NCBI GenBank assembly: GCA_964016885.1
Contig: OZ024747.1
Coordinates: forward strand, 36,952,001 to 37,016,000
DNA: 64,000 nt
Reading direction: 5' to 3'
Source of the DNA: Eledone cirrhosa
Taxonomy: Eukaryota
Position numbers and translations under genes: made by a program. Below, piece after piece: positions 2,581 to 62,107 of the stretch; the first letter of the stretch is position 1; each line of letters opens with the position of its first letter. The notes under the pieces are model-generated. The model did no database searches. It was not told the DNA's origin and saw nothing but the letters and a program-made list of their open reading frames with translations.

Positions 2581-2963
2581 AGTACAATAACAAGCACATA
2601 TAAACACACACTAGTTAACAAAGATACAATACGAAAACAAAAATACATACGCTCAAACGCGAACACACACACCAAACATTAAATATTATATATACTAGCA
2701 GTTTTCTGTTAGCATGTGTAGTGTGTATATTGATATTATATGCAAGTATATATACATGTAGATATGATACATCAAATAAAATCGTAATTGACAATATACA
2801 CAGAAATTGAACGAAGACTGTGTTACACTGTCTTATGTAATCAGTAACGTAATCCATGATACATTATAAAAAGACGATATTATATATAAACTGCATCGGG
2901 AGAAAATTAGTGACAGAAAATTAATATGTTTATTTAAGCAATCGCCACCGGAAGTGTGAACAT

Positions 2964-4302: not shown

Positions 4303-4338
<36 letters not shown>

Positions 4339-4350
4339 GTTATTGTTATT
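4303..4350. repeat. (ATT)n tract separating A1 and B1
   Basis: Direct reading. Confidence 0.95.

Positions 4351-7152: not shown

Positions 7153-7211
<59 letters not shown>
7152..7211. repeat. (ATT)n tract between B1 and C
   Basis: Direct reading. Confidence 0.95.
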
Positions 7212-7426
7212 GAATGCCATGGTTGACGGAGGCTCGGCTCTGTAAGGTATTGTAAATTTTGACCGTTATAACAATTGTAAATTGTTTAAAACTTTAACCA
7301 AACTGTAGACAAAAACACCCTCCTCCTCGTGAGAGGGGTCTTTCTGTCCGTTATTTGGCCCTTCGTGGTTAAATAACCGCTTATTGGGGTTTTGTGCCCA
7401 ATATTTATTTTAAACAAAAAAAAAAC

Positions 7427-9567: not shown

Positions 9568-9602
9568 GTGGTCTTTCCCATCTTTTCCACTCTATTTTAA
9601 AC

Positions 9603-12600: not shown

Positions 12601-13012
12601 GAGATGCGCGCAGGGCGACGAAACCGTCCTGCACGCACTCGTCCAGTGTCCGAAAATTGCTGACTTGTGGGATTATGTCGAACACCTGCTGTCGCGTGTA
12701 GGACGGATCCGGCTATCAGCTGAGTCCGTCGTGAGGATTGCCCCGCCCTCTTCCTTTAGCCGGGAAGAGCAGGCAGTTTTTATCTGTCTGGTGGCCATGG
12801 CGAAAGAGATAGTATGGTGGACACGTTTGAAAGGGCTGAAGACGAGCACTTACCTCTTCGGTGATGCTCTGATTGACTTTTTCAAATTTCATTTGAAAAG
12901 GAAAATCAGAGTAGAGAGGGAAGTGCTCTCTTCCCAGCATTTTGTTGAAAGATGGGTGAGAGAAGCAAGAATGGCCCGAGTGAATGGGCCTACTCTGAGT
13001 ACGTATCTGTAA
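9603..13012 (+). pseudogene. ORF2: APE endonuclease - reverse transcriptase - C-terminal Zn finger, several frameshifts and stops
   Basis: SINARGL...AISETR, GDWN, SYLDR, YTDH, GYWKLN (APE); KSPGLDGL, NFRPINLLN, DQSKAFD, VRQGCPLS (RT); CPRCAQGDETVLHALVQC. Confidence 0.92.
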
Positions 13013-13261
13013 ATTAAAGGTGGAAAACTGGGAGAGGGCACTTGCCTTAGTGGTCAGAGTCACTGTCGCCTTTTACTGGGCTTTCTCCACAAATGTCCCT
13101 CCGAAGTCTCCCCCCTATTGGGGAATTTTTCATTGTTATTTTTTTGTTACACCCTCTGTTTTTGTTTTTTACATTGTACCGTCCTGTATTGTCCTGCACT
13201 GTCCTTAATGTCTACTTTATGTAAACCCTTGTGGTTAATAAAGAAATCATTATTATTATTA

Positions 13262-18213: not shown

Positions 18214-18216
<3 letters not shown>
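13262..18216 (-). mobile_element. R4/Dong-type family A, near full-length copy (A2) with about 1.2 kb 5' leader
   Basis: ORF pieces 16489-17031, 14121-16523, 13453-13740 (RT, CCHC, RLE RPDI...); (ATT)n at both ends. Confidence 0.93.
13398..17031 (-). pseudogene. Family A ORF (N-terminal KWSREDN myb-like region, RT, RLE), with frameshifts and stops
   Basis: Provided ORF translations; frame breaks near 16500 and 14121. Confidence 0.88.
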
Positions 18217-18273
<57 letters not shown>

Positions 18274-18274
<1 letters not shown>

Positions 18275-19013
18275 AGTTGCATTTATCTTGCTTTATGTTC
18301 ATACGAGTTATCACCAAGTCACAACCAGTGACCTCAAGAGACAACAAGGTCCGCCATGTTCAAGAAAGAACATACATACTCACACATGCATCTTTAGTGT
18401 TTAGACTTGTGATGTACAGAATCTTCCTTAGTATATGGGCAGTTCCCATTAGTACTATCTTTTGTATTTCTCCTATACGCGCGTTTCCTGGGATTTGCAA
18501 TAAGTAATCATTAGACCCCTTAGGTATCATTCCCAGAGCGCCTACAACCACTGGTATTGTTTTAGTTCTCAATTTTCACATTTTTCCAATTTCTATCTCC
18601 AGGTCCTTATACTTGCTCAATTTTTCAAATGTTTTTATAGATACATTCTTGTCTATTGGAACAGACATATCAATTAGCAGGCATACCCTCTTTTTGAAGT
18701 CCTTCAACATTATATCAGGTCTATTTGCATCTATTTTTCGGTCTGTTTGGATGCTAAAGTTCCACAAGATTGAGATGTGATCTTTTTCAAGTATGGGAGG
18801 TGGTTGATGCTCCCACCAATTCTTTTGATGGGGCAGGTCAAAATGCTTACACATTATCCAATGTATGTATTGTGAAGCTCTGTCATGCCTGTTTAGGTAT
18901 TCGGTTGGAGCTATATGACTGCACATTGAAATTATATGGTCAATGGTCTCTGGTTGTTTTTTGCATACACGGCATAATGGGCTGCATCCATTTTTTATTA
19001 TGTTGGCTTGGTA

Positions 19014-19017
<4 letters not shown>
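18274..19017 (-). mobile_element. Family A, 5'-truncated 3'-end copy (A3)
   Basis: Near-identical to 13262-13990; CRVCKKQPETIDHIISMC and RLE motifs; (ATT)n on both sides (18214-18273, 19018-19065). Confidence 0.93.
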
Positions 19018-19053
<36 letters not shown>

Positions 19054-19065
19054 GTTGTTGTTATT

Positions 19066-22000
19066 CCTTGAATCTCAGTCATTGATGTTGGTTAACTGGA
19101 AAGTCCGTTGGATTGAATATCAAGCCACTACCTGCAGCCTCAGATATTCAGGACGTATCGGAGGGTTCTTGCTGTTCCAAGCAAGCATGCCTTTTGAAGC
19201 GTTCCAAAAAGCGTGAAGGGGCCGATTTTCTTTAACCATCCCTGGAAACTTTTGGAGATAGTCCCCAGTGCGCCTATGACAATCGGGATCACTTTGACTT
19301 CATGGCAGTTCCAAATCCTTTTCACCTCCCACTTTAGGTCCTGGTATCGGTTAATTTTCTCCCTCTCCTTCTCTTGCACTCTCGTGTCGAACGGGCAGGC
19401 TACATCCACAATCAGACACGATCTTTTTTCTTTGTCCACAACCACCAGGTCAGGTCTATTGTGTTCCAGTTTTTTGTCCGTCTGTATCCTAAAATCCCAC
19501 AGCACCTTCACCTGATTGTTCTCCATCACCGCCTCTGGCCTATGCTCATACCATTTCTCAGAATGTGGTAAATTGTTTACTTTGCACAGGTGCCAGTGGA
19601 TCACCCTGCCCATCACATCGTGTCACCAGCCCTTATAGTGGGTCTGGGCTAGGTGTTTACACTCGGACACAATGTGAGCCACAGTCTCCTCTCTCTCTCC
19701 ACAGATCCTGCACAGTGGGCTAGCCTCCTCCTTGTAAATATGGTGCTTCAACCACTTCGTTTTGACGGCCTGCTCCTGCGCAGCCATTAGCATTCCTTCT
19801 GTAGCCTTTTTGAGGTCTCCTCTTCTCAACCAGTTCCATGTCTGTGGATCTCTAAATTCAGTTTTCTCAAAGAAGGTACTATGAAGGGATTTTCCCTTAA
19901 GGCTGCTCTTCCTCCTTGATGTTATTTCCTCCTTGGACATCCCCTGGCCTACTGTCCCCTCCTTCAGTACAGTTCTGAGCATTGGCTCCTTACTATAGGG
20001 CACGTATTTGTATAGGTTGTTTTTCTCCATCTGAACACAGTCCTCTATGCTGATAAGACCTCTTCCACCCTCAGATCTCCTTAGGTAGAGTCTATCGACA
20101 TCACTCCTCTTGTGGAACATGTTGTAGATAGTCAATAGCTTCCTAGTCTTCCTATCCATTTCTTTTTTTTCAGCAACATTCCATCTCAGAATTCCCGCAC
20201 TGTACCTAATAATAGACACAGCTCGGGAATTTATTGCGCTTATGGCATTTCTGCTGTTCAGATGTGACTTCAATACGCTCCTTACTCTCCGATTGTATTC
20301 AGTTCTTAACAATTCCTTCATTTTTTTGTTCTTTATGCCATCAACCTCCAGAACGCCCAAATACTTGTATCCTTCCTCAGAATCAATTTCCTTTATCATC
20401 TCACCTGCTGGTATCTGGATCCCGTTACTTCTGCTCAACCTACCCCTCCTCATCACAATGACTCCACATTTACCAATACCAAACTGCATACATATATCAC
20501 TGCTGAAAATACGGACAGTGTCAACAAGCACATCCAACTCCTTCTCACTTTTCCCGAAGAGCTTAAGATCGTCCATGAAGAGGAGGTGATTGATGGTAAG
20601 CTATCCCCTTCCCAACTTGTATCCTGCTCTCACTTTTCGCAGCATAATGGTCAAGGGCATCAGGGCAAGGACAAACAACAGAGGGGACAGGCTATCTCCC
20701 TGGAAGATACCTTTCTTGATCTTCACGCTTCCCAAGGATACTCCAGTTGATGTCAACTCTGTCTCCCAGGACCCCATACTCCTGCCTAGCCACTGTCTGA
20801 TGTTATCTGCCACCCTGAAGATCTCCAGGCTTTTGGTGATCCAAGAATGAGGCACCATGTCAAATGCCTTTCTGTAGTCTATCCATCCCATGGCAAGATC
20901 AGTGTGTCTCCTCCTGCAATTCCCCATTACCATCTTATCAATAAGTAACTGGTCCTTTGTACCACGTGACTTCTTTCGGCATCCTTTCTGTTCGTCCGGT
21001 AACAAGTTGTTTGTGTGGAGGTGATGGTAGATGTCCTCAGACACAATGCTCGTCAACAGTTTCCACATCACGGACAGACATGTGATAGGTCTATAGTTGG
21101 TAACATCATTACCCTTGATTCGGTCTTTCATTATCAAAACTGTGGTACCTTTTGTCAACCACTCTGGCACCTCACCCGACACCAAGCAGTCATTGAACAT
21201 GGCCGTCAGCTTCGGGTGGAGGGATGTTAAATGTTTAATCCAATACCCCTGCACACCATCTGGGCCTGGTGATTTCCAGTTGGTTAGTTTTTTGGCCTGC
21301 CCCTTAAGAGTTTCAACTGTGATACTCAAATCAGTTTGTTGTTGTGCCTGCTCACCGATCTCCCTCTGTACTGTCTCAATCCACCCTGCCTGGACATTAT
21401 GTCTAACATCCTGCTCCCATATTCCTCTCCAGAATGTTTTAGTTTGCTCCGCCCCAGGGATCAAGTCGTTGCCTCTTTCTTTCCCCTCAAGCTGTCCAAA
21501 CAGCATCTTCTGGTTGTTGTCGAACATGCGGTTCTGTTTATACTGACTGACTCTGTTCTCGTATCGCCTGATTTTTGCACTCTTTGCTACAATGCGTTGC
21601 TTCAGTTCCTCTATGATAATATTTAGCTTTTTCCTCCTAGTTTTGTATTTTATTTCCAGTCTATTTTTAGTGCCTATGTTTTTTAGTGTCCCATTCAGTA
21701 GTGACTCAAGCTTTCCTATGTCATTTCTCATTTCCCCGATTTGCCCACTCAGTCGCTTCTTCCACCACGGCTCTGCTCTTTCTTGTCTGTTGTTTCCTCT
21801 CGCTTTTATACCAAGTAGTTTCCTCACCGTATTTGCTGTTGCTTTGAGGATATTGTTGCACTGGTGAAGGCTCCTCGCCTCAAGGTATGGGATGACTTTG
21901 TTTACCTTAGCTGTTGTTTCTTTTAACTTTTTCCTGTCTACAAATCTTAGGTTCATAGGTCTCCCACTATCATTGTTCAATTCATCTACCACTAAATTTA

Positions 22001-23617
22001 GGATGTCAACCGAATCTTGTCCTAGCCCGTCAGCATTCATCTCCTCAGTGGCTGTATCTCTGTTCCAGGTATTATTTATCTCAGTATTCAGATCATTGTC
22101 TGCTTCGGGTGGTTCCTCCGTTCTCAGGACCTCTTCACCTTCATTTCCCACTGGCTCGCTTGTCTGGCATACTACACCCGCCATCTCCAAGCCATTCTCT
22201 CTGCTCAGTTCCTCCAGTTCCAGCTCGCTTATCCACCCATTAGTTCTTATTACCCGAGCCTGCCCGGCCAATTTTTGTTCATCTAATTTAAATAAACCAA
22301 TCTCGTTCCAGATGTTATGCATCCGTCTCCTGTAGCCCCTCGCCTTGGGGTTACTTTTCAGGTAACATTCCATAACAGTTCTATTCAATTCTTTCGTCCA
22401 GTTGGTTCTGGCCTCTTTCCTTCTTCTCCTTCCTCCAACATCAGCAGTATTTGGTTGACAGTCAGGTTCCTGCTGCTGAGCCAGGGGGCACCTGTTGGGT
22501 GAGAGTCTGTCACATGACGTTCTAGTCTCCATTTCACCGTTATTCGAACTGTTTATGTTCGATATTTAAACACTCTTATCGAGGATTGGCGAATGTATGG
22601 TTACATAGCCATCTGTGGATCCGCCATTCCACTTGGCCCTTGTGTGGCATTATCACCACGCTGTATACGAACACACATAAACAAACAAACACACAGGCAG
22701 AAAGGGCCCCAAAAATGAATAAGCATAAGTTTCATTGTAATGTAGTGTTCGAATGTCTGACTTAGTTTTTTGTTTTTTAAGTTTTAGTTTTTCCCCCCTC
22801 TTCTCTGTCCGTCCGCCTGCTTCTCTCTTCATTCTTATTTTCTTTACGTTTTTTGGGGTTTTTTTTTTTTGTTTTTGTTTTGGTTTTTCTCTGTTTGTTT
22901 TTCTCGTTTTTTGCTGTTGTTGCTGTGCTGCTTTGGTTTTGTTGTTTGTTTTTTCTTTTTTCTTTTGAGTCTATCTATATATTTTGATGCCTTCCTCTTT
23001 TTTAGCAGTAGGGATTCTATAATGTGGTGGCAGCAGCCAGCTAGAAGAAGTGGGTGACTGGCGGCGGTAGCGATACTGAGACAGTGGTGGTGGTGATGTC
23101 GATACCGAGGCAGTGGTGGCGGTGATGTGACCGTATTACTGTAGTGATGGTGCTGTAGCGGTGGTAGCAGTGAAGGAGTGAAGGGGTGGTGGCGGCGGTG
23201 ATGGGATAATGGTGGTAATGGTGGCCGTAGTGAGCGGTGGTGGTGAAAATGCCGTTATCTGGCTGTTGTGTTTAGTGTACACAGGTGATGGGGTGGGTGG
23301 TGTATCTAGTTTCTGGTGCTGGTGAGTTTGGCTGTTCTATATAGTGTAGACAGAGGAGTGGAGGGGGGGGGGGTTCTTCTTCCATTTATAGCCATTTTCT
23401 TTTTTGGATATACAGTGTACAATACAAAGTTGAATATTTGAATATTTGAGCCTTATAACAATACATTTTGGGTCCGAATTTTTTGGGGCTCAAGCCGGGT
23501 GCTTTACGTAGCATTTGTACTAAGAGTTGTTATTTCACAAATGATTTAAATATGTTAAAAATTCAAAACTTACGGGAGCGATTTCATGACCTCCGCCACC
23601 TCGTGCGTCTTCTTCCC
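19066..23617 (-). mobile_element. Family B, apparently full-length copy (B2)
   Basis: ORF pieces 20601-22532, 19623-20576, 19140-19616 in one frame broken by point stops; about 1.1 kb 5' leader; (ATT)n on both sides. Confidence 0.94.
19140..22532 (-). pseudogene. Family B ORF (RT + CCHC + RLE) with two premature stops
   Basis: Collinear with the open B1 frame; stops at about 20601 and 19623. Confidence 0.9.
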
Positions 23618-30530: not shown

Positions 30531-31048
30531 TAGAGGGGAAAGACACAGGAGAGTGTGTTTTCATTACAGGAGTTTCGCACCACCAGCGTGAGATGAATAT
30601 AAGCTACTAGAGGCATTGGTAAAACATTAAAATTAAAAGTATAATTTGAAATGAAAAACCATCCTCACCTAAATCACACATGTACAGTTCTCACATTTTA
30701 GTTCTCTCTAGTAGTGCAGACAATATCGGCCTTCCACATGCTGATGACCCACCGGGCCGTACTGGAACCCACTAAAATGGCGAAACATGCTCCTGGTGAA
30801 TGTGTACATGTGTGATTTAGGTGACGATGGTTTTTCATTTCAATTTAAACTTTTAATTTTAATGTTTTACCGATGCCTCTAGTAGCTTATATTCTTCTCA
30901 CGCTGGTGGTTCGAAATTCCTGTAATGAAAAACACACTCTTCTGTGTCCCCTCTATATATTGTATTTTAAAGTGCCCAGGATAACTATTTCCTTTGAGCT
31001 CATTTAATTACAGGATTATACGCGAGTCCTTTGCTCCGTTATCTTTAC
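30531..31048. mobile_element. (TA)n-flanked fold-back element (arms about 30531-30686 and 30802-30955, plus about 90-nt tail)
   Basis: Long imperfect inverted repeat; hammerhead between and overlapping the arms. Confidence 0.85.
30735..30812 (+). ncRNA. Type I hammerhead ribozyme motif
   Basis: cacatg CTGATGA ...stem II... GAAA catg..tgtg TA catgtg; 6-bp stem I; first stem II pair mismatched. Confidence 0.7.
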
Positions 31049-31067
31049 TATATATATATATACATAT

Positions 31068-31300
31068 AAGATAAGTTATCCCGGGTTAATCGGGGGTAAC
31101 CACAGTAAGTAAGGTACTCAATACAGTGCTGTGTATAAATATGTAATATAGAAAAGCTTCTACGGGACTAGAACTGTTTCATTCGTGAGATATCATCAGG
31201 AAGCTGACTGTCCAAGTAAATATTTAGTTGGACAGTCAGCTTCCTGATGATTTCTCACAAATGAAACAGTTCTATTCCTGTAGAAGCTTTTCTATATTAA
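31068..31300. mobile_element. (TA)n-flanked fold-back element (arms 31144-31215 and 31228-31299, tail on left)
   Basis: Inverted repeat with a 12-nt loop and a hammerhead in each arm. Confidence 0.85.
31238..31288 (+). ncRNA. Type I hammerhead ribozyme motif (mirror copy on minus strand at about 31155-31205)
   Basis: agcttc CTGATGA tttctcacaaat GAAA cag-ttctattc-ctg TA gaagct. Confidence 0.8.
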
Positions 31301-32063
31301 ATATATATATACATATATATATGTGTGTGTGTGTTTATTATAATCGTGATGCAACATCAGTGATTAAATGCACTCGTTTAAGTGATTTTTTAGCACGATT
31401 CTTTTAAAGCCTTAGAATAACATTTATTTTTTCATGTTGTTCATGTAGTTCGTGTGGTGACACAGATGACGTACAGTATCTGTAGATATATAAGAATGAA
31501 ATTTACCCAGATTCTAATGATATAATGTTAACGATTGTGTTGCATCTTGTTCTTTGGATTTGCTTTGTCTACAGTTACATGTGTAAAAATCTATAAGGAA
31601 TTATTTCTTTTATTAAACATTTAAGTGACTTCTACAGGTAACCTAATTTCAACCTTTCTGATCATCTCATAAAATTCAGACAATTCATGGTCATTAAATC
31701 TAATCCAGGGCTTTCCCACTCCTGTTAGAAGGAGCCCTCACTCGTTGACCTCCTCCACTTCTGCTTGGTTTTAGTCATGTCAGCGGTATAGCCATACACA
31801 TCTTGCTTGACCAATTGCAGGTTGGTGAGGTTATTTAACCCCTATTTGAGGAGGATGGCCTTTGATTCCGAGGAGTTCATCTACCCTTTCAACAGCTCAT
31901 GTTTTTGTTTCTTTTATTTTTTGTTTTTTGTTTTTTGTTTTCTGTGCTTTTGGTGTTCCACTTACCCTCCTCACAAGACAGTGTCTGGTGAGGAAGCTAG
32001 TTTACTGGCCGACAACTCGAACACGAAGCAACATACATATATTTTGTTAATTTCCCCCTTCAC

Positions 32064-36072: not shown

Positions 36073-39000
36073 GTTCTTTGAGTTTCAGTCATTGATGTTA
36101 TTTAACTGGAAAGTTTGTTGAAATGAATATCAAGCCGTTACGTGCAGCCTCAGATATTCAGGACGTATTGGAGGGTTCTTGTTGTTCCAAGCAAGCGTGC
36201 CTTTGAAGTGTGCCAAAAAGCGGGGTTGGACTAATCTTCTATAACCATCCTTGGAAACTCTTTGAGATAGAACCTAGTGCGCCTATGACAATCGGAACGA
36301 CCTTGACATCATGGCAGTTCCAAATCCTTTTTAACTCCCATTTTAAATCCTGGTATCGGTTAATTTTCTCCCTCTCCTTTTCTTGCACTCTCTGGTCAAA
36401 TGGGCAGGCTACATCTACAATCAGGCACGCTCTTTTTTCCTTGTCTAAAACCATCAGGTCAGGCCTATTGTATTCCAGTTTCTTATCCGACTGTATCCTG
36501 AAATCCCACAGCACCTTCACCTGATCGTTTTCTATCACCGACTCTGGCTTATGCTCATACCACTTCTCAGAATGTGGTAAATTGTTTACTTTGCATAGGT
36601 GCCAGTGGATCACCCTGCCTATCACATCGTGTCTCCAGCCTTTATAGTGAGTCTGGGCTAGGTATTTACACTCGGATACAATGTGAGCCACAGACTCCTC
36701 TCTCTCTCCACAGATCCTACACAGTGAGTTAGCCTCTTCCTTGTCAATATGGTGTTTCAGCAACTTCGTTCTGAGGGCCTGCTCTTGCGCAGCCATTAGC
36801 ATTGCTTCTGTAGCTTTTATAAGGTCGCCTCTTTTTAACCAATTCAAGGTCTGTGGATCTCTAAATTCCGTTTTCTTAAAGAAGGTACTATGAAGGAAAT
36901 TTTCATGGAGGTTTCTCTTCTTCCGATTTGTTATTTCCTCCTTGGACATCTCCTGGTCTATTGTCTTATCCTTCAGTACAAATTTGAGCATTGGCTCCCT
37001 ACTGTCAGTCACATATTTGTGCAGGTTGTTTTTCTCCATCTAAACACAGTCCTCTATGCTGATAAGACCTCTTCCACCTTCAGATCTCCTTAAGTAGAGT
37101 CTATCGACATCACTCCGCTTGTGGAACATACTGTAGATAGTCAATAGCTTCCTAGTCTTCCTATCCATTTCTTTTTGTTCAGAAATATTCCATTTCAGAA
37201 TTCCCGCACTGTACCTAATAATAGACACAGCTCGGGAACTTACTGCACTTATGACATTCCTACTATTTAGATGTGATTTTAATACGCTCCTTACTCTCCT
37301 TATGTACTCAGATTATATCAATTCCTTCCTTTTTTTGTACTTGATGTCATCTGCCCCTTGAACACCTAAATATTTGTATCCCTCCTCAGTGTCAATTTCC
37401 TTTATCATCTCACCCGTTGGTACCTGGATTCCGTTGCTTCTGCTCAATTTACCCCTCTTCATCACTAGGACTCCACACTTATTAATTCCAAATTCCATAT
37501 CATTGCTGTAAATACGGACAGTGTTAACAAGTACATCCAACTCCTTCTCACGCTTCCCAAACAGTTTAAGATCGGTCATGAAGAAGAGGTGGTTGACGGT
37601 AAGCTCTCCTTTTCCCAACTTGAATCCTGCTCTCACTTTTCGCAATATAATGGCCAGGGGTATCAGGGCAAGGACAACCAGCAGAGGGGACAAACTATCT
37701 CCCTGGAAAATACCTCTCTTGATCTTCACGCCTCCCAAGGATTCTCCACCCGATGTTAGCTCTGTTTTCCGGGACTTCATACTTTTGGTCAACAACTGTC
37801 TAATGTTATCTGCCACCTTGATGATCTCTAGGCTTTTGGTTATCCAAGAATGAGGTACTATGTCGAATGCCTTCTTGTAATCTATCCATTCCATGGCAAG
37901 ACCAGTATGCCTCCTCTTGCAATTCCTCATTACCATCTTATCAATAAGTAACTGGTCTTTTGTACCACGGCACTTCTTTCGGCATCCTTTCTGTTTGTCC
38001 GGTAACAAGTTGTTTGTGGAGTGATGGTAGATTTCCTCAGACACAATGCTTGTTAACAGTTTCCACATTGCGGACAGACATGTGATGGGCCTATAGTTGT
38101 TAACATCATTATTCTTGATTCGATCTTTCATTACCAGAACTGTGGTACCATTTGTCAACTACTTCACCCGGAACCAAGCAGTCATTGATCATGGCTGTCA
38201 GTTTTGGGTGGAGGGATGTTATTCTTTTTATCCAATATCCTTGCACACCATCTGCGTCTGGTGATTTCCAGTTTTTTTGGCCTGCTTTGTAAGAGTTTCA
38301 GCTGTGATACTCAAATCACGTTGTTGTGTGCTTATTCACTAATCTCCTTTTGAACTGTCTCAATCCACAGTGCGCGACTATTATGTTCAACTTACGCTCC
38401 CATATTCCTCTCTAGAATGCCTTAGTCTGTTCAGCCTCAGAGATCAAGCCGTTACTTCTTTCGTTCCATTCAAGCTGTTCAAATAATTATCTCTACTTTA
38501 GGCACAAGGCCAGCAATTACCCAGTGCATTACTGGTACTTTATTTTATCGACCCCGTAAGGATGAAAGGCAAAGTCAACCTCGGCGGGATTTGAACTCAG
38601 ATCATAAAAGGACGTAACTATGCTGGAAAGCATGGCGTCCGACCCTCTACTGATACTGCCAATCTACCGCCCTTCAAGCTGTCAAATAATATCTTCTGGG
38701 TGTTGTCAAACATACGGTTCTCTCTAACTCTGTTCTCATACCGCCTAATCTTTGCGCTTTTTCCTACTTCTGTTCCGCTGTGATAGCATTTAGCTCTTTT
38801 CCCCTAATCTTGTATTTTATTTTCAATCTATCTTTAGTGTCTATGTTGTGTAATGACTCAGGCTTTCCAATGTATTTTCTCATTTCCTTGATTTGACCAT
38901 TCAGTCGTTTCTTCCACCAAGTGTCCGATCTTTCTTGTTTGTTGTTTCCTCTCGTTTTTATCCCAACTACTTTTTTCACCACATTTGCGGTTGCTTTCTG

Positions 39001-45610: not shown

Positions 45611-45765
45611 CGAAAATTAAGGACATTTAAATAAAACTAAGGTAAAAGACTAATTGTCAACAATATCTTTTGCATTTGCATTCTTTATTCTATGTCCATA
45701 CCTGCATTGTTTTGGCTTTATTATACATATACAAATGTTTATATATATATATATATATATATATA

Positions 45766-45924
45766 CCCTAAGTATTGAGTACTCAATACTTAGGGAAGTA
45801 GAGTGGGAAATAGGAAAAAGTATGACCTCAACGGCAGAGCTCAAGCCGTTTCGACGGCTATTTCTCTACTCCAGAAATAGCCGTCGAAACGGCTTGAGCT
45901 CTGCCGTAGGGGGCCATAAATTTT

Positions 45925-45928
<4 letters not shown>
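45766..45928. mobile_element. (TA)n-flanked double-hairpin element
   Basis: Perfect 30-nt palindrome 45766-45795; 35-bp perfect stem 45831-45907; related copy at 63905-64000. Confidence 0.8.
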
Positions 45929-45988
<60 letters not shown>

Positions 45989-45996
45989 TATGTATG

Positions 45997-46038
<42 letters not shown>

Positions 46039-46043
<5 letters not shown>

Positions 46044-49000
46044 ATAAATGCTCTGAAATAGCGATATATATGTGAATATAGACATAGAATATTCGAAAAT
46101 ATTCTGTATGTTTATAATAAACATTTTGAAGACCTAATCGCTATAGAATAGAATACGTCACGTATTACAATTAGATTCTCGATAAAAGCAAGGGAAGTAA
46201 GTCTACGCGTTTCATTCTTGTTAGAATTCATCAGGACTACATATCCAGTGCTTTTATCGAGAATGACACAGCTAGAGACTTATAGAATACTTAGCTGTGT
46301 ACAGGAACTGGTTTGAAAGAGCGGTTGCCGGTCCGGCAGAAATTAGAAATTGGAATAAATGCTCTGAAATAGCGATATATATGTGAATATAGACATAGAA
46401 TATTCGAAAATATTCTGTATGTTTATAATAAACATTTTGAAGACCTAATCGCTATAGAATAGAATACGTCACGTATTACAATTAGATTCTCGATAAAAGC
46501 AAGGGAAGTAAGTCTACGCGTTTCATTCTTGTTAGAATTCATCAGGACTACATATCCAGTGCTTTTATCGAGAATGACACAGCTAGAGACTTATAGAATA
46601 CTTAGCTGTGTACAGGAACTGGTTTGAAAGAGCGGTTGCCGGTCCGGCAGAAATTAGAAATTGGAATAAATGCTCTGAAATAGCGATATATATGTGAATA
46701 TAGACATAGAATATTCGAAAATATTCTGTATGTTTATAATAAACATTTTGAAGACCTAATCGCTATAGAATAGAATACGTCACGTATTACAATTAGATTC
46801 TCGATAAAAGCAAGGGAAGTAAGTCTACGCGTTTCATTCTTGTTAGAATTCATCAGGACTACATATCCAGTGCTTTTATCGAGAATGACACAGCTAGAGA
46901 CTTATAGAATACTTAGCTGTGTACAGGAACTGGTTTGAAAGAGCGGTTGCCGGTCCGGCAGAAATTAGAAATTGGAATAAATGCTCTGAAATAGCGATAT
47001 ATATGTGAATATAGACATAGAATATTCGAAAATATTCTGTATGTTTATAATAAACATTTTGAAGACCTAATCGCTATAGAATAGAATACGTCACGTATTA
47101 CAATTAGATTCTCGATAAAAGCAAGGGAAGTAAGTCTACGCGTTTCATTCTTGTTAGAATTCATCAGGACTACATATCCAGTGCTTTTATCGAGAATGAC
47201 ACAGCTAGAGACTTATAGAATACTTAGCTGTGTACAGGAACTGGTTTGAAAGAGCGGTTGCCGGTCCGGCAGAAATTAGAAATTGGAATAAATGCTCTGA
47301 AATAGCGATATATATGTGAATATAGACATAGAATATTCGAAAATATTCTGTATGTTTATAATAAACATTTTGAAGACCTAATCGCTATAGAATAGAATAC
47401 GTCACGTATTACAATTAGATTCTCGATAAAAGCAAGGGAAGTAAGTCTACGCGTTTCATTCTTGTTAGAATTCATCAGGACTACATATCCAGTGCTTTTA
47501 TCGAGAATGACACAGCTAGAGACTTATAGAATACTTAGCTGTGTACAGGAACTGGTTTGAAAGAGCGGTTGCCGGTCCGGCAGAAATTAGAAATTGGAAT
47601 AAATGCTCTGAAATAGCGATATATATGTGAATATAGACATAGAATATTCGAAAATATTCTGTATGTTTATAATAAACATTTTGAAGACCTAATCGCTATA
47701 GAATAGAATACGTCACGTATTACAATTAGATTCTCGATAAAAGCAAGGGAAGTAAGTCTACGCGTTTCATTCTTGTTAGAATTCATCAGGACTACATATC
47801 CAGTGCTTTTATCGAGAATGACACAGCTAGAGACTTATAGAATACTTAGCTGTGTACAGGAACTGGTTTGAAAGAGCGGTTGCCGGTCCGGCAGAAATTA
47901 GAAATTGGAATAAATGCTCTGAAATAGCGATATATATGTGAATATAGACATAGAATATTCGAAAATATTCTGTATGTTTATAATAAACATTTTGAAGACC
48001 TAATCGCTATAGAATAGAATACGTCACGTATTACAATTAGATTCTCGATAAAAGCAAGGGAAGTAAGTCTACGCGTTTCATTCTTGTTAGAATTCATCAG
48101 GACTACATATCCAGTGCTTTTATCGAGAATGACACAGCTAGAGACTTATAGAATACTTAGCTGTGTACAGGAACTGGTTTGAAAGAGCGGTTGCCGGTCC
48201 GGCAGAAATTAGAAATTGGAATAAATGCTCTGAAATAGCGATATATATGTGAATATAGACATAGAATATTCGAAAATATTCTGTATGTTTATAATAAACA
48301 TTTTGAAGACCTAATCGCTATAGAATAGAATACGTCACGTATTACAATTAGATTCTCGATAAAAGCAAGGGAAGTAAGTCTACGCGTTTCATTCTTGTTA
48401 GAATTCATCAGGACTACATATCCAGTGCTTTTATCGAGAATGACACAGCTAGAGACTTATAGAATACTTAGCTGTGTACAGGAACTGGTTTGAAAGAGCG
48501 GTTGCCGGTCCGGCAGAAATTAGAAATTGGAATAAATGCTCTGAAATAGCGATATATATGTGAATATAGACATAGAATATTCGAAAATATTCTGTATGTT
48601 TATAATAAACATTTTGAAGACCTAATCGCTATAGAATAGAATACGTCACGTATTACAATTAGATTCTCGATAAAAGCAAGGGAAGTAAGTCTACGCGTTT
48701 CATTCTTGTTAGAATTCATCAGGACTACATATCCAGTGCTTTTATCGAGAATGACACAGCTAGAGACTTATAGAATACTTAGCTGTGTACAGGAACTGGT
48801 TTGAAAGAGCGGTTGCCGGTCCGGCAGAAATTAGAAATTGGAATAAATGCTCTGAAATAGCGATATATATGTGAATATAGACATAGAATATTCGAAAATA
48901 TTCTGTATGTTTATAATAAACATTTTGAAGACCTAATCGCTATAGAATAGAATACGTCACGTATTACAATTAGATTCTCGATAAAAGCAAGGGAAGTAAG

Positions 49001-51655
49001 TCTACGCGTTTCATTCTTGTTAGAATTCATCAGGACTACATATCCAGTGCTTTTATCGAGAATGACACAGCTAGAGACTTATAGAATACTTAGCTGTGTA
49101 CAGGAACTGGTTTGAAAGAGCGGTTGCCGGTCCGGCAGAAATTAGAAATTGGAATAAATGCTCTGAAATAGCGATATATATGTGAATATAGACATAGAAT
49201 ATTCGAAAATATTCTGTATGTTTATAATAAACATTTTGAAGACCTAATCGCTATAGAATAGAATACGTCACGTATTACAATTAGATTCTCGATAAAAGCA
49301 AGGGAAGTAAGTCTACGCGTTTCATTCTTGTTAGAATTCATCAGGACTACATATCCAGTGCTTTTATCGAGAATGACACAGCTAGAGACTTATAGAATAC
49401 TTAGCTGTGTACAGGAACTGGTTTGAAAGAGCGGTTGCCGGTCCGGCAGAAATTAGAAATTGGAATAAATGCTCTGAAATAGCGATATATATGTGAATAT
49501 AGACATAGAATATTCGAAAATATTCTGTATGTTTATAATAAACATTTTGAAGACCTAATCGCTATAGAATAGAATACGTCACGTATTACAATTAGATTCT
49601 CGATAAAAGCAAGGGAAGTAAGTCTACGCGTTTCATTCTTGTTAGAATTCATCAGGACTACATATCCAGTGCTTTTATCGAGAATGACACAGCTAGAGAC
49701 TTATAGAATACTTAGCTGTGTACAGGAACTGGTTTGAAAGAGCGGTTGCCGGTCCGGCAGAAATTAGAAATTGGAATAAATGCTCTGAAATAGCGATATA
49801 TATGTGAATATAGACATAGAATATTCGAAAATATTCTGTATGTTTATAATAAACATTTTGAAGACCTAATCGCTATAGAATAGAATACGTCACGTATTAC
49901 AATTAGATTCTCGATAAAAGCAAGGGAAGTAAGTCTACGCGTTTCATTCTTGTTAGAATTCATCAGGACTACATATCCAGTGCTTTTATCGAGAATGACA
50001 CAGCTAGAGACTTATAGAATACTTAGCTGTGTACAGGAACTGGTTTGAAAGAGCGGTTGCCGGTCCGGCAGAAATTAGAAATTGGAATAAATGCTCTGAA
50101 ATAGCGATATATATGTGAATATAGACATAGAATATTCGAAAATATTCTGTATGTTTATAATAAACATTTTGAAGACCTAATCGCTATAGAATAGAATACG
50201 TCACGTATTACAATTAGATTCTCGATAAAAGCAAGGGAAGTAAGTCTACGCGTTTCATTCTTGTTAGAATTCATCAGGACTACATATCCAGTGCTTTTAT
50301 CGAGAATGACACAGCTAGAGACTTATAGAATACTTAGCTGTGTACAGGAACTGGTTTGAAAGAGCGGTTGCCGGTCCGGCAGAAATTAGAAATTGGAATA
50401 AATGCTCTGAAATAGCGATATATATGTGAATATAGACATAGAATATTCGAAAATATTCTGTATGTTTATAATAAACATTTTGAAGACCTAATCGCTATAG
50501 AATAGAATACGTCACGTATTACAATTAGATTCTCGATAAAAGCAAGGGAAGTAAGTCTACGCGTTTCATTCTTGTTAGAATTCATCAGGACTACATATCC
50601 AGTGCTTTTATCGAGAATGACACAGCTAGAGACTTATAGAATACTTAGCTGTGTACAGGAACTGGTTTGAAAGAGCGGTTGCCGGTCCGGCAGAAATTAG
50701 AAATTGGAATAAATGCTCTGAAATAGCGATATATATGTGAATATAGACATAGAATATTCGAAAATATTCTGTATGTTTATAATAAACATTTTGAAGACCT
50801 AATCGCTATAGAATAGAATACGTCACGTATTACAATTAGATTCTCGATAAAAGCAAGGGAAGTAAGTCTACGCGTTTCATTCTTGTTAGAATTCATCAGG
50901 ACTACATATCCAGTGCTTTTATCGAGAATGACACAGCTAGAGACTTATAGAATACTTAGCTGTGTACAGGAACTGGTTTGAAAGAGCGGTTGCCGGTCCG
51001 GCAGAAATTAGAAATTGGAATAAATGCTCTGAAATAGCGATATATATGTGAATATAGACATAGAATATTCGAAAATATTCTGTATGTTTATAATAAACAT
51101 TTTGAAGACCTAATCGCTATAGAATAGAATACGTCACGTATTACAATTAGATTCTCGATAAAAGCAAGGGAAGTAAGTCTACGCGTTTCATTCTTGTTAG
51201 AATTCATCAGGACTACATATCCAGTGCTTTTATCGAGAATGACACAGCTAGAGACTTATAGAATACTTAGCTGTGTACAGGAACTGGTTTGAAAGAGCGG
51301 TTGCCGGTCCGGCAGAAATTAGAAATTGGAATAAATGCTCTGAAATAGCGATATATATGTGAATATAGACATAGAATATTCGAAAATATTCTGTATGTTT
51401 ATAATAAACATTTTGAAGACCTAATCGCTATAGAATAGAATACGTCACGTATTACAATTAGATTCTCGATAAAAGCAAGGGAAGTAAGTCTACGCGTTTC
51501 ATTCTTGTTAGAATTCATCAGGACTACATATCCAGTGCTTTTATCGAGAATGACACAGCTAGAGACTTATAGAATACTTAGCTGTGTACAGGAACTGGTT
51601 TGAAAGAGCGGTTGCCGGTCCGGCAGAAATTAGAAATTGGAATAAATGCTCTGAA
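46039..51655 (-). repeat. Tandem array of 18 apparently identical 311-bp units, each with a minimal hammerhead ribozyme (retrozyme-like)
   Basis: ggaataaatgctc at 46041, 46352, 46663 ... 51639 (5598/311 = 18); no differences between units seen by eye. Confidence 0.95.
46175..46264 (-). ncRNA. Minimal type I hammerhead ribozyme (first of 18 copies, period 311)
   Basis: agtc CTGATGA attc-taacaa-gaat GAAA cgcg TA gact; stem I extended by a 16-bp helix attctcgataaaagca/tgcttttatcgagaat beyond an internal loop. Confidence 0.9.
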
Positions 51656-51944
51656 AGAGCATTTATTCCAATTTCTAATTTCTGCCGGACCGGCAACCGC
51701 TCTTTCAAACCAGTTCCTGTACACAGCTAAGTATTCTATAAGTCTCTAGCTGTGTCATTCTCGATAAAAGCACTGGATATGTAGTCCTGATGAATTCTAA
51801 CAAGAATGAAACGCGTAGACTTACTTCCCTTGCTTTTATCGAGAATCTAATTGTAATACGTGACGTATTCTATTCTATAGCGATTAGGTCTTCAAAATGT
51901 TTATTATAAACATACAGAATATTTTCGAATATTCTATGTCTATA

Positions 51945-51948
<4 letters not shown>
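51656..51948 (+). repeat. Single inverted copy of the 311-bp unit forming a terminal fold-back
   Basis: Apex gctct-GAA-agagc, then reverse complement of the unit, running into (TA)n. Confidence 0.95.
51757..51846 (+). ncRNA. Minimal type I hammerhead ribozyme in the inverted copy
   Basis: CTGATGA 51787-51793, GAAA 51808-51811, CGCG, GUA cleavage triplet 51815-51817. Confidence 0.9.
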
Positions 51949-51984
<36 letters not shown>

Positions 51985-52543
51985 CATATCGTTATACTTT
52001 GGGAGGGTCATGCTGCCAATAAAAACATACGCACCCGCGATTTTCACTTCAATTTATTATAAACTTTCGGTTGGTTGGCTGGTTCGATAAACGGAAGGTT
52101 GTTTATATATTGTCAAAGCTCTTTCTTCACACATTCTGTGACCACCTCAGTGACTAGGCTTTATTTTGTGTTTCTCCTTTGTTTTTGTGTTTTGTGTACC
52201 GTGTGCTTAGTTTGCGCATGTGTTACATCCGTGTGTGTGTGTGTGTTTTTTTATTTATTTAAGTGTTTATTTACTTATCACTAGCTGGTTGTTTTTTTTA
52301 TCTGTTTGTGTCTGATTTGTTTTGTTAGTTTGGTTTTGTGTGAGTCTGTATGTCTTCATTTTGTCCTTAATTACTAGTTGTGATGTCACTATTCCACTCA
52401 TGCTTTCTGTTTAATTTTGGTTGGAGTTCGTTTATGTTTGTCGCTTCTGTGATTTGTCTGAGCATTTCCCTCCCAAAGTATAACAATATATGTATCAACA
52501 CACGTTTTCAGATAATAAATCTTGCAAAACAAATTCAAAAGGG

Positions 52544-56930: not shown

Positions 56931-56981
<51 letters not shown>

Positions 56982-56985
<4 letters not shown>

Positions 56986-59301
56986 TAAAAGAGAAAACAC
57001 AGGTAAGCATTAAGAGTAGGATTTTATCCAGGTATTTACGACCGTTTCATTGGTAAGTGCAACCTTATATTGCTATACTGCAAATAGCAGCCACTCAATT
57101 ATAATTGTTGTTCACTTCATGTCGTAGAATGTAGTGAGTTAAAGAGAATTAAATTGATCATAGTGGGAGAGAGAGAGGGGGAAAATTTAAAGATATATAT
57201 ATATATAAAAATAAAGATAAAGATAATAATGACAAAAATATAAGCAAAGATGGGGGTGAGAAAGAAGAAAAGAAAAGATAGCCAAGAAGGGGAGGGGAGG
57301 AAGGAAGAAAACGAAGAAATAGAAAAGGAATGAGGGAGAAGAGGGGGATATATGTATTGGTTGTGTGGGTAATTAAAAGGGTTTAGATACAAGAAGAGGG
57401 TATAAAGTCTAAGTATATGCAATTTGTCAGTTGGTAGTAAGAGGTTAAGGGTTCGATTTGTAGTGCGAAAACTTCTCTTTGAATCTATGGTTACAATAAA
57501 TTGATCTTTCGATTTTATTGTTGAGTAACTTATTCTTCGAACTTAAGATGTGGAACAGCTCAAGGTCGCATAATCGACAGCTTCTCATACCACTCCGATA
57601 TGGGGGCGCGTTCGATAATATTTTCCACTTCAGGGTGTATTGATGGTTACTTTCTCTCAGTTGCCAGGTCTTGTTTGCAAGGGTAGTTACATAACGATGC
57701 TGGGAATGTTCCATTGCGTAACGGTGTGTATACCAACGGGCTTTAAATGTATTCCCAGTCGCTCCGATGTAATACCATTTCTAGTTGTCGGATTCCACTG
57801 TGCATTGGTAAACCAGGTTAGACTGCATACATTCATTATGTAATGGACAGGTTTCAGGTAAGTGGCAGTTACAATTCTTGTCATGGTCAACTTTGGCATT
57901 ATTGGTGGGCTACGATGCCTGTACACGTGTGTTACGTTTTGTTTGCCTATTAGCGGGTGATTGTGTATTAGATATTCTGTTGTGTTCGGTGGTGATTGTA
58001 TTGTTATTGTTGTAAATTTGTGTTTTTGTGTTGTTATGTATCTTTTTAGCGTTAAGTATCTTAATGTGTGCCTCTATATTTGGTGCCGTGGAGTAAGATA
58101 GTCTAATAGATTTAGTGTTAAGGATTTTGCTGTAACTATGTGAATCTGGAAAGTGCTTATTTATTATTCTAAAGAAGGTAGAGGGTAGGTTGGTACTAAT
58201 AGAGGTGTTAAATATGGGGTTATACCAAATATATTTTCTACTGCGTGACTTGTTTGATTTCGATGTTGTATTTCTATTTACCGTATACTTTGCAGTTCTA
58301 TGCGTAAGTGCGTGTGTGCGTGTGTTAACGGAGTTTGTGTTATGCGTGTTCGTGTGCGCTTCACGGAGGCTTTCATCTATATATTCTACTCTATCTAAGT
58401 GGCCTACCTTGTCTAATGCGGTATTGTAGTATTCTGCATGTTCTTCGAAGATTTGTCGGTTAGACGAGAGGCAGGAGATCCTAAGGGATATGCTGCGTGG
58501 AATGGATTTAATTATGGGTAGTGGGTGGTTTGAGTTACAGTTGATGTATTCTTAGTTTTCATTATTCTTGTGAAAAGGTCTTATAAGTCCCGTTTTATGT
58601 TAATAGTCGCGTCTAGAAATTAACTGTTTTAGTGCTATACTCATACGTTATGCTAAGGCCTAGTTTTCCGAGAGTCTTTCTAATATTCTTACGGAGACTT
58701 TCTATGCTCTGGTTATTTAGGTTCTTAACTAGGAGAAGGGCGTCGTCTCTGTAGATTCCACCGTGAAGGTCGCTAAACTCACTTTGTAAACTATGGGCTA
58801 TGTCAATACCTACTAAATCTGTGACTTGAGCCGAGTCGTTAGCCCCCATCCTGATGTCAAAGTTATTTAATCTGTCCTTAGGTTCCCAATAGGCGTTTTC
58901 GAATTTAATTATTGTTTTCCTAGCAGCTAATATGATTTTTATCTCGTCGTCTGTTATGTCAGAATTGGCTTTTGCGAATGCTAAGGCTTTATTCAAGGTG
59001 TTGGGGGATATAGATGAGTAATAATCGTTAATGTCAAATCGTTAATGTCAATTATAATTGAGTGACTGCAATTTGCAGTATAGCAATATAAAGTTGCACT
59101 TACCAATGAAACGGTCGTAAGTACCTGGATAAAATCCTTCTCTTAATGCTTACCTGTCTTTTCTCTTTTATACTTTATACTCCAAAATTGAACGGAATTC
59201 TTACATACTTGTAGAGTTACCCCTAACCGTACTTTGAAACCATCCATGAAACTGGCTTTCTTAACCAAGAACTGGATCACAATAAGCAATTGTTTGCTTC
59301 T

Positions 59302-59339: not shown

Positions 59340-59967
59340 GTGAGGTTTTTTTTACAAATTGAAAAATAACCGAGGTGTCCTACACGAGTGAAAGTATAAA
59401 GAAAAAGAGATGAAATCGAAAATGCAACTGGAGTCTTATTTTTTTTTTAAATATATATATTTATTTGGTTCCTTTGCCGGTTTCGCAGTTCTTCTGCTTT
59501 TCAAAAGGTGAGTTGAGATGGAGGGTCTATGGTTTTTCTCACAAAAAAAAAAAGAGAGCCGTATCCCAAAACAAAGCGCGTCCTGGTCAACTCTGACAAA
59601 GCAGACATCCCAGTCATGACCGTTCGATTTTTAGGCGTATCTAATCTATTATCCTATCTATTACATAATTTGAGGGAGATTCGGTTACTATTTCTAGCAT
59701 ACATATACTACTATACCGATTCATATTTAGTTTTTCCATACACATACATGCTTTGAGAGGCGACCTTCGCAAACTAGAGAAGCGATGAATGAAGCCCTCA
59801 GCATCGATAAATTCTTCGTTATATTTTGAGAAAAATCACAGACCCTCCATCTCAACTCACCTTTTGAAAAGCAGAAGAACTGCGAAACCGGTAAAGGAAC
59901 CAAATAAATATATATATATTTTTTTTAAAATAAGACTCCAGTTGCATTTTCGATTTCATCTATTTTT

Positions 59968-61659: not shown

Positions 61660-61690
<31 letters not shown>

Positions 61691-61695
<5 letters not shown>

Positions 61696-62107
61696 TAAAC
61701 GGAATAGAAAATGCTGACAAATTGTTCACAGTTGAAAAATGGTTTAATTAGGAATAAAAGAGTATTAGTGATTGTATGGGTTAGTATTCAGTTGTGGTTT
61801 TAAGTTTTTAAGTTTTTACCGGTTGCGCATTTCTAAATGCTTTTCAAAAATAATTTTGAGATAGAGTGTCCGTGCTGTTTGCTCAGATCAGAGCAAACAG
61901 CACGGACACTCTATCTCAAAATTATTTTTGAAAAGCATTTAGAAATGCGCAACCGGTAAAAACTTAAAAACTTAAAACCACAACTGAATACTAACCCATA
62001 CAATCACTAATACTCTTTTATTCCTAATTAAACCATTTTTCAACTGTGAACAATTTGTCAGCATTCTCTATTCCGTTTACCAATATATAATAACTTGTGT
62101 ATTCTTT

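What the first reader, a model, noticed from the sequence alone, without database searches (positions are those of the whole stretch)
46039..51948. Ribozyme concatemer: 18 identical 311-nt hammerhead units capped by a snap-back inverted copy inside (TA)n
Seen: (TA)n, then 18 x 311 bp with no visible differences, then the apex gctct-GAA-agagc, one inverted unit and (TA)n; there is no ORF. Each unit has an intact minimal type I hammerhead with palindromic stem III CGCG. Known: such minimal hammerheads occur in Penelope-like pLTRs and in metazoan non-LTR retrozymes, cleave as dimers and can yield small circular RNAs. Inference: this is a young insertion made by rolling-circle reverse transcription of an approximately 311-nt circular RNA using Penelope-like RT/GIY-YIG in trans, finished by self-primed fold-back. 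Both the left junction and the turn-around fall in the same about 20-nt window, roughly 150-165 nt from the cleavage site, which a linear monomer cut by the ribozyme would not explain. The result joins retrozyme-type multimers to the inverted-pLTR architecture of the neighbouring elements.
Basis: partly seen in the sequence, partly recalled or inferred. Interest (0 to 1): 0.9.

Follow-up and report, generated by a model that had tools for sequence, protein, structure and literature searches.

The report
Two-armed hammerhead retrozyme with Penelope footprint
This is one copy of a young, protein-free repeat that carries a predicted self-cutting RNA motif and sits at well over a thousand places in TA microsatellites as two back-to-back arrays, one ending at each of two fixed points, a pattern that likely records a Penelope-type retrotransposon enzyme copying one small RNA, predicted to be circular, from both sides of a DNA break.

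Summary
In detail: 18.07 identical 311-nt units, a GAA apex and a 293-nt inverted arm lie between (TA)n tracts, each unit with a minimal type I hammerhead. It is one of about 1,250-2,000 loci. In 91 of 91 fully read two-armed loci the arms are head-to-head, one ending at site A (131-140 nt after the cleavage site), the other at site B (166-173). This matches the Penelope 'tail' and its two in vitro start sites; 4 of 4 two-armed copies of a young Penelope family here do the same. Both arms share one haplotype, including locus-private variants fixed in every unit; apexes fall anywhere and show microhomology. Either arm can be longer, and in 11 of 91 loci neither contains the other, so fold-back is not the general rule and this snap-back apex is a minority form. 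Best reading: twin target-primed rolling-circle reverse transcription by a Penelope enzyme in trans. Circular RNA, cleavage and the partner element are unshown. Retrozymes, tails and inverted copies are each published; I did not find this combination. The scan noted this family before (e1-8671497) and similar ones in other genomes.

The parts
45927..46039 (.). Left (TA)n target tract
   Evidence: TRF; sequence
46038..51656 (-). B arm: 18.07 identical 311-nt units, ribozyme sense on the minus strand; outer (3') end at site B, +166 from the cleavage site
46038..46072 (-). 'Tail' (+132 to +166): present at the left end of the insertion, absent from the right end
   Evidence: matches the 30-40 bp Penelope tail (PMC8557442 passages; PMC11167929)
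46197..46240 (-). First minimal type I hammerhead: core 46204-46234; stem I GUAGUC with GACUUAC (one bulge); stem II 5 bp with a 4-nt loop; helix III A-U, C-G with palindromic CGCG; predicted cut after GUA at 46204. Repeats every 311 nt to 51521
46279..46383 (-). Block +132 to +236 of the unit (one example), the part best conserved with a sister family about 68% alike; candidate enzyme-recognition element (inferred)
51648..51660 (.). Head-to-head apex GCTCT-GAA-AGAGC joining the 5' ends of the two arms (+146 and +150; 1 nt shared)
51656..51948 (+). A arm: 293 nt (0.94 unit), +150 through the cleavage site to +131; outer (3') end at site A
51781..51824 (+). Hammerhead of the A arm (core 51787-51817; predicted cut after 51817)
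51948..51989 (.). Right (TA)n target tract
   Evidence: TRF

Best explanation
This is one insertion of a young, abundant, non-coding hammerhead repeat (a non-LTR retrozyme) whose loci are two head-to-head arrays in (TA)n, one ending at site A and one at site B, and it was likely written by a Penelope-type reverse transcriptase and endonuclease acting in trans on a single RNA that is predicted to be a 310-311-nt circle. Inferred steps: (1) array transcripts would be cut by dimeric hammerheads and the monomers ligated into circles; (2) the enzyme, probably as a dimer, would cut both strands of a (TA)n tract; (3) one 3'-OH would prime at A (AUAUAUAU, +131-140) and the other at B (+166-173) on the same RNA; (4) both cDNAs would roll round the circle for independent distances (median 3.4, up to 45 turns); (5) their free 3' ends would be joined by microhomology, short templated inserts or snap-back and then filled in. 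Shown: the architecture, the one-A-one-B rule, the shared haplotypes and the junction signatures. Inferred: RNA, cleavage, circle, enzyme and order of steps.
For: Family size: 1,246 exact B+TA and 1,253 exact A+TA junctions. Pairing the first 100 A and 92 B ends on contig C1 gave 63 pairs: 33 B-A, 30 A-B, 0 A-A, 0 B-B. Full reading: 91 of 91 two-armed loci with both ends readable are one A plus one B, including 25 of 25 picked by one end only and 7 of 7 picked by the ribozyme. 181 of 182 ends have (TA)3 or more within 20 nt; 91 of 91 apex pairs are distinct. A Penelope protein in vitro starts at two internal sites that bound the tail, nicks AT-rich DNA, extends both strands and is modelled as a dimer (PMC11167929, main text). 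In-genome control: 4 of 4 two-armed copies of a young element with RT and GIY-YIG (L173, L174, L176, window 61686-62089) have one tailed and one tail-less end in TA. One template per locus: 0 of 60 loci with both arms of 2 units or more have arms fixed for different alleles, among 26 haplotypes (chance match 0.125 each); 15 variants private to 13 loci are fixed or near-fixed across both arms, up to 24 units. Locus-fixed changes are A>G in 10 of 30 against 6 of 92 single-unit changes (Fisher p=0.0006), which suggests an RNA step. Apex overlap of 2 nt or more in 36 of 65 junctions without an insert, against 18% by chance; 26 of 91 carry inserts, several copied from the unit. In L104 a B arm of about 10 nt is absent from its 104-nt A arm. 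Locus-fixed hammerhead variants fall at N7, loop II, the pair closing stem II and stem I wobble pairs.
Against: No autonomous partner with sequence likeness was found among 62 loci from two protein searches, 30 GIY-YIG loci or 25 exclusion-pattern hits. The one young Penelope family examined has similar spacing (+126, +165) but no likeness beyond shuffles (p=0.72). Three loci (L064, L131, L077) carry non-fixed variants at the same distance from the outer end in both arms, which a pure monomer circle cannot give without a template exchange. Full palindromes in end register are in excess (5 of 91, 0.6 expected, p=0.0002), which fold-back or a shared linear end also predicts. Large arrays (L049, L052, L053, the 45-unit arm) show variants repeated in scattered units, so later local exchange occurs. 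The hammerhead lacks the G10.1-C11.1 pair that PMC4209133 calls highly conserved, and minimal hammerheads cleaved weakly even as dimers (passages); 8 of 9 frog retrozyme dimers did not cleave (10.64898/2026.07.22.740005). The A>G excess over T>C alone is not significant (10 against 5, p=0.12) and was a post-hoc test. In the older sister family one locus (L255) looks B-B against six A-B.
Confidence: 0.6

Rival explanations
1. Twin priming as above, but the template is a long uncut linear multimer transcribed from an existing array; circles act only now and then.
For: L077 reads X,X,Y... from the outer end in both arms; L064 and L131 have mirrored single variants in the same register; 5 of 91 loci are full palindromes, as if both cDNAs ran off one end. 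Hammerhead cleavage was not needed in vitro and uncut RNA was the main substrate (PMC11167929).
Against: 15 private variants fixed across all or nearly all units of 13 loci and 40 haplotypes in 91 loci need repeated monomer bottlenecks. Daughters could never be longer than parents, yet arms reach 45 units and this one has 18 without a difference. Only 2 single variants are mirrored in end register, against 92 unmirrored single substitutions.
Confidence: 0.17
2. One cDNA (or an antisense RNA) self-primes and folds back, and the hairpin is resolved by a staggered endonuclease cut that leaves the tail on one end.
For: This locus has a 3-nt hairpin apex; 13 of 91 apexes are near-palindromic (6.8 expected) and 5 of 91 loci are full palindromes; the three mirrored cases all have the B arm longer; shared haplotypes follow at once. 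PMC3846280 (passages) proposes self-priming from palindromes at inverted junctions.
Against: 78 of 91 apexes join different phases; the A arm is longer in 40 and the B arm in 51, whereas a fixed cut polarity would tie the longer arm to one site; in 11 of 91 neither arm contains the other, with no depletion against independent lengths; L104's B arm is not in its A arm; in L114 the outer four B units differ from all seven A units.
Confidence: 0.13
3. Short two-armed Penelope-type inserts of one or two units grew in place by unequal exchange or slippage, like a satellite (the array model in 10.64898/2026.07.22.740005).
For: Variants repeated in scattered units in four large arrays, one with a 7-unit period (L052); local growth from one unit would also fix private variants.
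Against: Most arms on both sides are multimers (A over 2 units in 70 of 91, B in 71 of 91) although 44 of 91 loci have no single-unit substitution and divergence is 3.4e-4 per base; partly spread variants occur in only 11 of 91 loci; 311-nt units would have to multiply faster than one point mutation in nearly every locus.
Confidence: 0.07
4. The array or its inverted arm is an assembly or library artefact (fold-back chimera, inflated copy number).
For: 18 units without a difference cannot be counted from short reads; N gaps border some arrays (L038, L102, L112); L112 repeats the apex of neighbouring L058.
Against: Fixed outer ends, 91 distinct apexes, locus-specific haplotypes and unit-private mutations; contigs of run X1 show the tandem joint and loose ends at 46375 (site A) and 46344 (site B) (X1 may be the sample of the assembly); an older subfamily and a sister family share the layout.
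Confidence: 0.03

Closest known systems
Metazoan non-LTR retrozymes (Cervera and de la Pena 2020, PMC7229834: passages and Discussion read; Li, Clavereau and Pollet 2026, 10.64898/2026.07.22.740005: parts 1-3 of 5 read)
   Same: Non-coding tandem units of 150-450 bp, GC under 50% (here 34%), a type I hammerhead in every unit, dispersed in high copy; a circular RNA template giving tandem cDNA and mobilisation by Penelope-like elements are both proposed there.
   Different: The word 'inverted' does not occur in the main text of PMC7229834, and the preprint parts read describe no two-armed layout or fixed ends and ascribe arrays to local amplification. Here the loci are head-to-head pairs with one A and one B end in (TA)n. 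RNA and cleavage, shown for the published ones, are untested here. Supplementary Figure S9 of PMC7229834 and the preprint's supplements were not seen.
Endonuclease-bearing Penelope-like elements (Craig et al. 2021, PMC8557442: passages and section 10; Arkhipova et al. 2013, PMC3846280: passages; Frangieh et al. 2024, PMC11167929: parts 1-2 of 4)
   Same: Inverted 5'-truncated copy in head-to-head order, 30-40 bp tail often at one end only, AT-rich or (TA)n targets, minimal hammerhead upstream of two internal start sites; non-autonomous members with multicopy head-to-tail inserts (MRC1).
   Different: No ORF; both arms are long concatemers of a 310-nt unit; the tail rule is strict here (91 of 91), whereas the papers call it optional or 'often', and in vitro the two strands did not differ in start site; no partner with sequence likeness found.
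LINE-1 twin priming (recalled, not read)
   Same: Two target 3' ends each prime a cDNA; the products join head-to-head at microhomology.
   Different: LINE-1 uses the poly(A) end plus a variable internal site on a linear RNA; here both starts are fixed, internal and 26-42 nt apart, and both products are multimers.
Rolling-circle cDNA concatemers of the bacterial DRT2 system (PMC12039810, search listing and start of abstract only)
   Same: A reverse transcriptase makes head-to-tail repeats from a short RNA template.
   Different: Bacterial defence system with a coding product; no ribozyme cleavage step or chromosomal insertion is described in what I saw; only an analogy.

Membership tests
Metazoan non-LTR retrozyme | Type I hammerhead motif in each repeat unit | tested here: met
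   19 of 19 positions in the window; core kept in the common variants among 886 motifs from 91 loci; below Rfam thresholds
Metazoan non-LTR retrozyme | Tandem units of 150-450 bp, GC under 50%, dispersed in many copies | tested here: met
   310-311 nt, 34% GC; at least 1,246 loci
Metazoan non-LTR retrozyme | No coding capacity | tested here: met
   Longest stop-to-stop frames 59 and 54 aa
Metazoan non-LTR retrozyme | No primer-binding site or polypurine tract | not tested
   No search made
Metazoan non-LTR retrozyme | Expressed as linear and circular monomer RNA | not testable with these tools
   No strand-resolved RNA reads were available
Metazoan non-LTR retrozyme | Self-cleavage, as monomer or dimer | not testable with these tools
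   A cofold of two motifs pairs the CGCG segments between molecules (-17.5 against -4.8 kcal/mol for one); prediction only
Metazoan non-LTR retrozyme | Canonical loop I-loop II tertiary contact | not tested
   Stem I is closed by the rest of the unit; contacts were not assessed
Penelope-like element (non-autonomous) | Inverted 5'-truncated copy in head-to-head order | tested here: met
   94 of 108 loci read are simple two-armed, 1 is complex, 2 have a tiny second arm, 10 are single-armed, 1 ends at a gap
Penelope-like element (non-autonomous) | 30-40 bp tail at one end | tested here: met
   Ends at +131-140 and +166-173, one each in 91 of 91 loci
Penelope-like element (non-autonomous) | AT-rich or (TA)n targets | tested here: met
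   181 of 182 ends; 84 of the 91 loci were selected through a TA junction at one or both ends; the 7 picked by the ribozyme also lie in TA
Penelope-like element (non-autonomous) | Minimal hammerhead with short palindromic helix III | tested here: met
   GAAAC-GC-GUA; G10.1-C11.1 is absent
Penelope-like element (non-autonomous) | Sequence likeness to the pLTR of an autonomous element | tested here: inconclusive
   None found in 62, 30 and 25 loci, a small sample of tens of thousands of candidates
Penelope-like element (autonomous) | ORF with reverse transcriptase and GIY-YIG endonuclease | tested here: not met
   No ORF

The most novel reading that the evidence does not exclude
Penelope-type enzymes insert by obligate asymmetric twin priming: one dimer holds a single RNA at two fixed sites, extends both ends of a double-strand break, and on a ribozyme-made circle both polymerases roll round the same molecule. 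This would explain the Penelope tail, the inverted copy and retrozyme arrays by one mechanism, and this family would be a genomic record of rolling-circle retrotransposition of a circular RNA.
Probability: 0.45. Interest if true: 0.85.

Novelty: new variant of a known kind. Interest (0 to 1): 0.66.

Why it matters
How Penelope-like elements make their tandem and inverted insertions and their tail is named as an open problem (PMC8557442, passages), and circular-RNA retrotransposition of retrozymes has been proposed but, in what I read, not shown (PMC7229834, Discussion). This family gives more than a thousand young, independent insertions with informative haplotypes. They set strict rules (one A end and one B end, one template, independent lengths, end-joined apex) that a reconstituted enzyme either reproduces or does not. 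If true, an enzyme that writes multi-kilobase concatemers from a 310-nt circle into both sides of a break would also interest genome engineers. The parts are each known, which limits the novelty.

Tried and rejected
DNA search of the genome with the whole unit returned nothing, not even the window; patterns were used instead. Gapped end patterns counted minus-strand hits many times over; exact patterns replaced them. Rfam: no match. Partner hunt: protein searches with two Penelope-like fragments of the window, PF01541 and an exclusion pattern on the conserved block gave only family members, sister families and unrelated Penelope elements. The young RT plus GIY-YIG family has similar spacing but is no more alike than shuffles, so it is not claimed as partner. 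Sequencing runs: no RNA holder listed. 20 runs of 17 studies hold 66-94% of the words, but the three from other organism codes that I laid (X4, X5, X6) each gave one 340-nt contig at depth 7-34, and raw-read run X23 gave none; I draw nothing on host range or expression. No contig spans the right junction, so the locus itself and empty sites were not checked. The first microhomology count covered 52 of 91 loci and was replaced. No target-site duplication can be read inside (TA)n. The idea that the apex position is constrained was rejected (uniform, p=0.17). No period-2 variant pattern (dimer circles) was seen, though L064 is too short to exclude it. The sequence look-up of earlier findings was empty.
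Full report
Observation. The described structure is real in the window. 46038-51656 is 18.07 copies of a 311-nt unit with no difference among the 18 full copies; a GAA loop at 51653-51655 is followed by a perfect inverted arm, 51656-51948. TA tracts flank both ends. The hammerhead core with helix III CGCG occurs 19 times against none in 100 shuffles. It reads on the minus strand in the array and on the plus strand in the inverted arm, so the arms are head-to-head with their 3' ends at the TA. The unit has no long frame and folds better than shuffles (z = -3.9). Rfam is silent. Numbering from the predicted cut, the left end is at +166, the apex at +146/+150 and the right end at +131.

Family. 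A 40-mer over the ribozyme matches 1,144 times; the first 100 hits form 8 loci, each a minus array followed by a plus array. Exact junction patterns give 1,246 B ends (+166 or +168 then TA) and 1,253 A ends (+131 or +140 then TA). Capture-recapture on contig C1 suggests 1,800-2,000 loci. Of the first 100 A and 92 B ends, 126 paired into 63 loci: 33 B-A, 30 A-B, none A-A or B-B. I fetched 62 of these 63 pairs, 40 of the 66 unpaired ends and the ribozyme-picked loci: 108 loci with the window. 94 are simple two-armed, 3 of them cut by a gap or the fetch limit and dropped; 1 has a doubled apex; 2 have a second arm of only about 10-19 nt; 10 are single-armed (8 A, 2 B); 1 ends at a gap. All 91 readable two-armed loci have one A and one B end: 59 were picked as pairs, 25 by one end only, 7 by the ribozyme. 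All but the window come from C1. The family is young: 3.4e-4 single-unit substitutions per base, and 44 of 91 loci have none. The window's locus is the eighth longest of the 91 and belongs to a minor 311-nt haplotype; most loci have 310 nt.

Arms and apex. Arm lengths are not significantly correlated (Spearman 0.18, p=0.095); A is longer in 40 loci and B in 51; arms reach 19 and 45 units. Apex positions are uniform round the unit (p=0.17), all 91 pairs are distinct, and only 3 of 182 lie within 5 nt of the cleavage site. Overlap of 2 nt or more occurs in 36 of 65 junctions without an insert (18% by chance); 26 of 91 have inserts, several copied from the unit and one a foreign 272-nt piece. Near-palindromic apexes like the window's number 13 (6.8 expected) and full palindromes 5 (0.6 expected). 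In 11 loci neither arm could be a copy of the other, against 7.9 expected for independent lengths. So fold-back may seal some apexes but cannot be the general way the second arm arises.

Template. There are 40 haplotypes among 91 loci. In none of 60 loci with both arms of 2 units or more are the arms fixed for different alleles. 15 variants seen in one locus only are fixed or near-fixed across both arms of 13 loci. That needs a one-molecule bottleneck followed by many copies, the signature expected of a circle. Locus-fixed changes are richer in sense-strand A>G than single-unit changes (10 of 30 against 6 of 92, p=0.0006; against T>C alone p=0.12; post-hoc); RNA editing or polymerase error could cause this (inference). 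Against a pure monomer circle: L077 switches haplotype after two units in both arms, and L064 and L131 carry one variant at the same distance from the outer end in both arms; L114 has different outer units in its two arms; four large arrays show later local exchange. Two polymerases in step on one circle, with an occasional change of template, would give the first pattern; so would a linear multimer.

Ribozyme. Among 886 motifs the common variants touch N7, loop II, the pair closing stem II and stem I, where they keep or move a G-U wobble. Helix III is too short for a monomer and two copies are predicted to pair through CGCG, as described for minimal hammerheads, which would allow cutting of multimers and spare circles (PMC4209133, passages). 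G10.1-C11.1 is missing, so activity may be weak.

Link to Penelope elements. The inverted copy, a 30-40 bp tail often at one end only and (TA)n targets are known marks (PMC8557442, passages; PMC3846280, passages). A purified Penelope protein starts at two internal sites that bound the tail and extends both strands (PMC11167929). In this genome a young family with RT and GIY-YIG shows the same rule in 4 of 4 two-armed copies seen, among 8 loci fetched plus the window copy at 61686-62089. Its ends lie +126 and +165 from a hammerhead-like motif, but its sequence is no closer than shuffles. No partner with sequence likeness was found. A sister family about 68% alike, with a U3/A8 hammerhead variant (such variants recalled from Lunse et al. 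2017, not read), uses the same two ends: six loci A-B, one B-B, the rest truncated or single among 17 loci and four met in flanks.

Mechanism. Most likely a Penelope dimer cuts both strands of (TA)n, primes one end at A and the other at B on one RNA, both cDNAs roll round a circle, and their 3' ends are joined (0.6). Rivals: linear multimer template (0.17), fold-back with endonuclease resolution (0.13), local growth (0.07), artefact (0.03). Nothing at the RNA or enzyme level is shown.

Novelty. Retrozymes, their proposed circular template and their link to Penelope elements are published (PMC7229834; 10.64898/2026.07.22.740005). Eight searches of the open library gave no paper on two-armed retrozyme concatemers or a strict one-tail rule; subscription papers, figures and preprint supplements were not seen and may bear on this. 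I recorded my reading before looking at earlier notes. The scan had noted the same family (e1-8671497) and similar layouts in this and other genomes; these are not independent support. Verdict: new variant of a known kind, interest 0.66.

Noticed in passing
window 61686-62089: Perfect 202-nt palindrome in TA; it is the terminal region of a young Penelope family with RT and GIY-YIG, with one tailed and one tail-less end.
   Followed up: yes
L170-L176, L180: Young Penelope family (copies mostly 92-98% alike to L174) with a 784-aa RT plus GIY-YIG frame, an overlapping upstream 455-aa frame without Pfam match, inverted copies, a tail of about 40 nt and a hammerhead-like motif with U3/A8 and GCAA in place of GAAA.
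   Followed up: partly
L070:3231-3685, L093:3123-3265, L100:1477-2009, L233-L256, L203:2433-2864: Older sister families of the unit (318-324 nt, about 68% alike) with different hammerheads, one with U3/A8 and a long palindromic helix III, and the same two end sites; L180:7037-8371 is a 95% subfamily with the same layout.
   Followed up: partly
window 30558-30931, 31130-31313, 45750-45925, 56977-59179, 59451-59917: Further TA-flanked inverted structures; several hold CUGANGA or UUGANAA and GAAAC motifs, and 56977-59179 encloses a Penelope-like RT fragment. 31130-31313 has a hammerhead-like core that my scan did not score; earlier notes report scrambled hammerheads in this genome, not checked here.
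   Followed up: partly
window 51990-52490: High-copy element beside the insertion with short inverted ends and a degenerate hammerhead like those in L107, L134 and L136; its end reads GAGCATTT...CAAT then AT, like site B.
   Followed up: no
L053:1550-1821: A foreign 272-nt GC-rich piece captured at the apex between the two arms; source not traced.
   Followed up: no
L031:3043-3220: The same apex junction (+66/+30) occurs twice around a short inverted piece.
   Followed up: no
L044, L050, L053, L090, L096, L109, L112, L125, L176: At least four other hammerhead families in the flanks, some tandem and some on both strands of one locus.
   Followed up: no
window 2934-22565 and 36239-38158: Nested non-LTR retrotransposon copies with RT domains, two with frames of 808 and 849 aa.
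   Followed up: no
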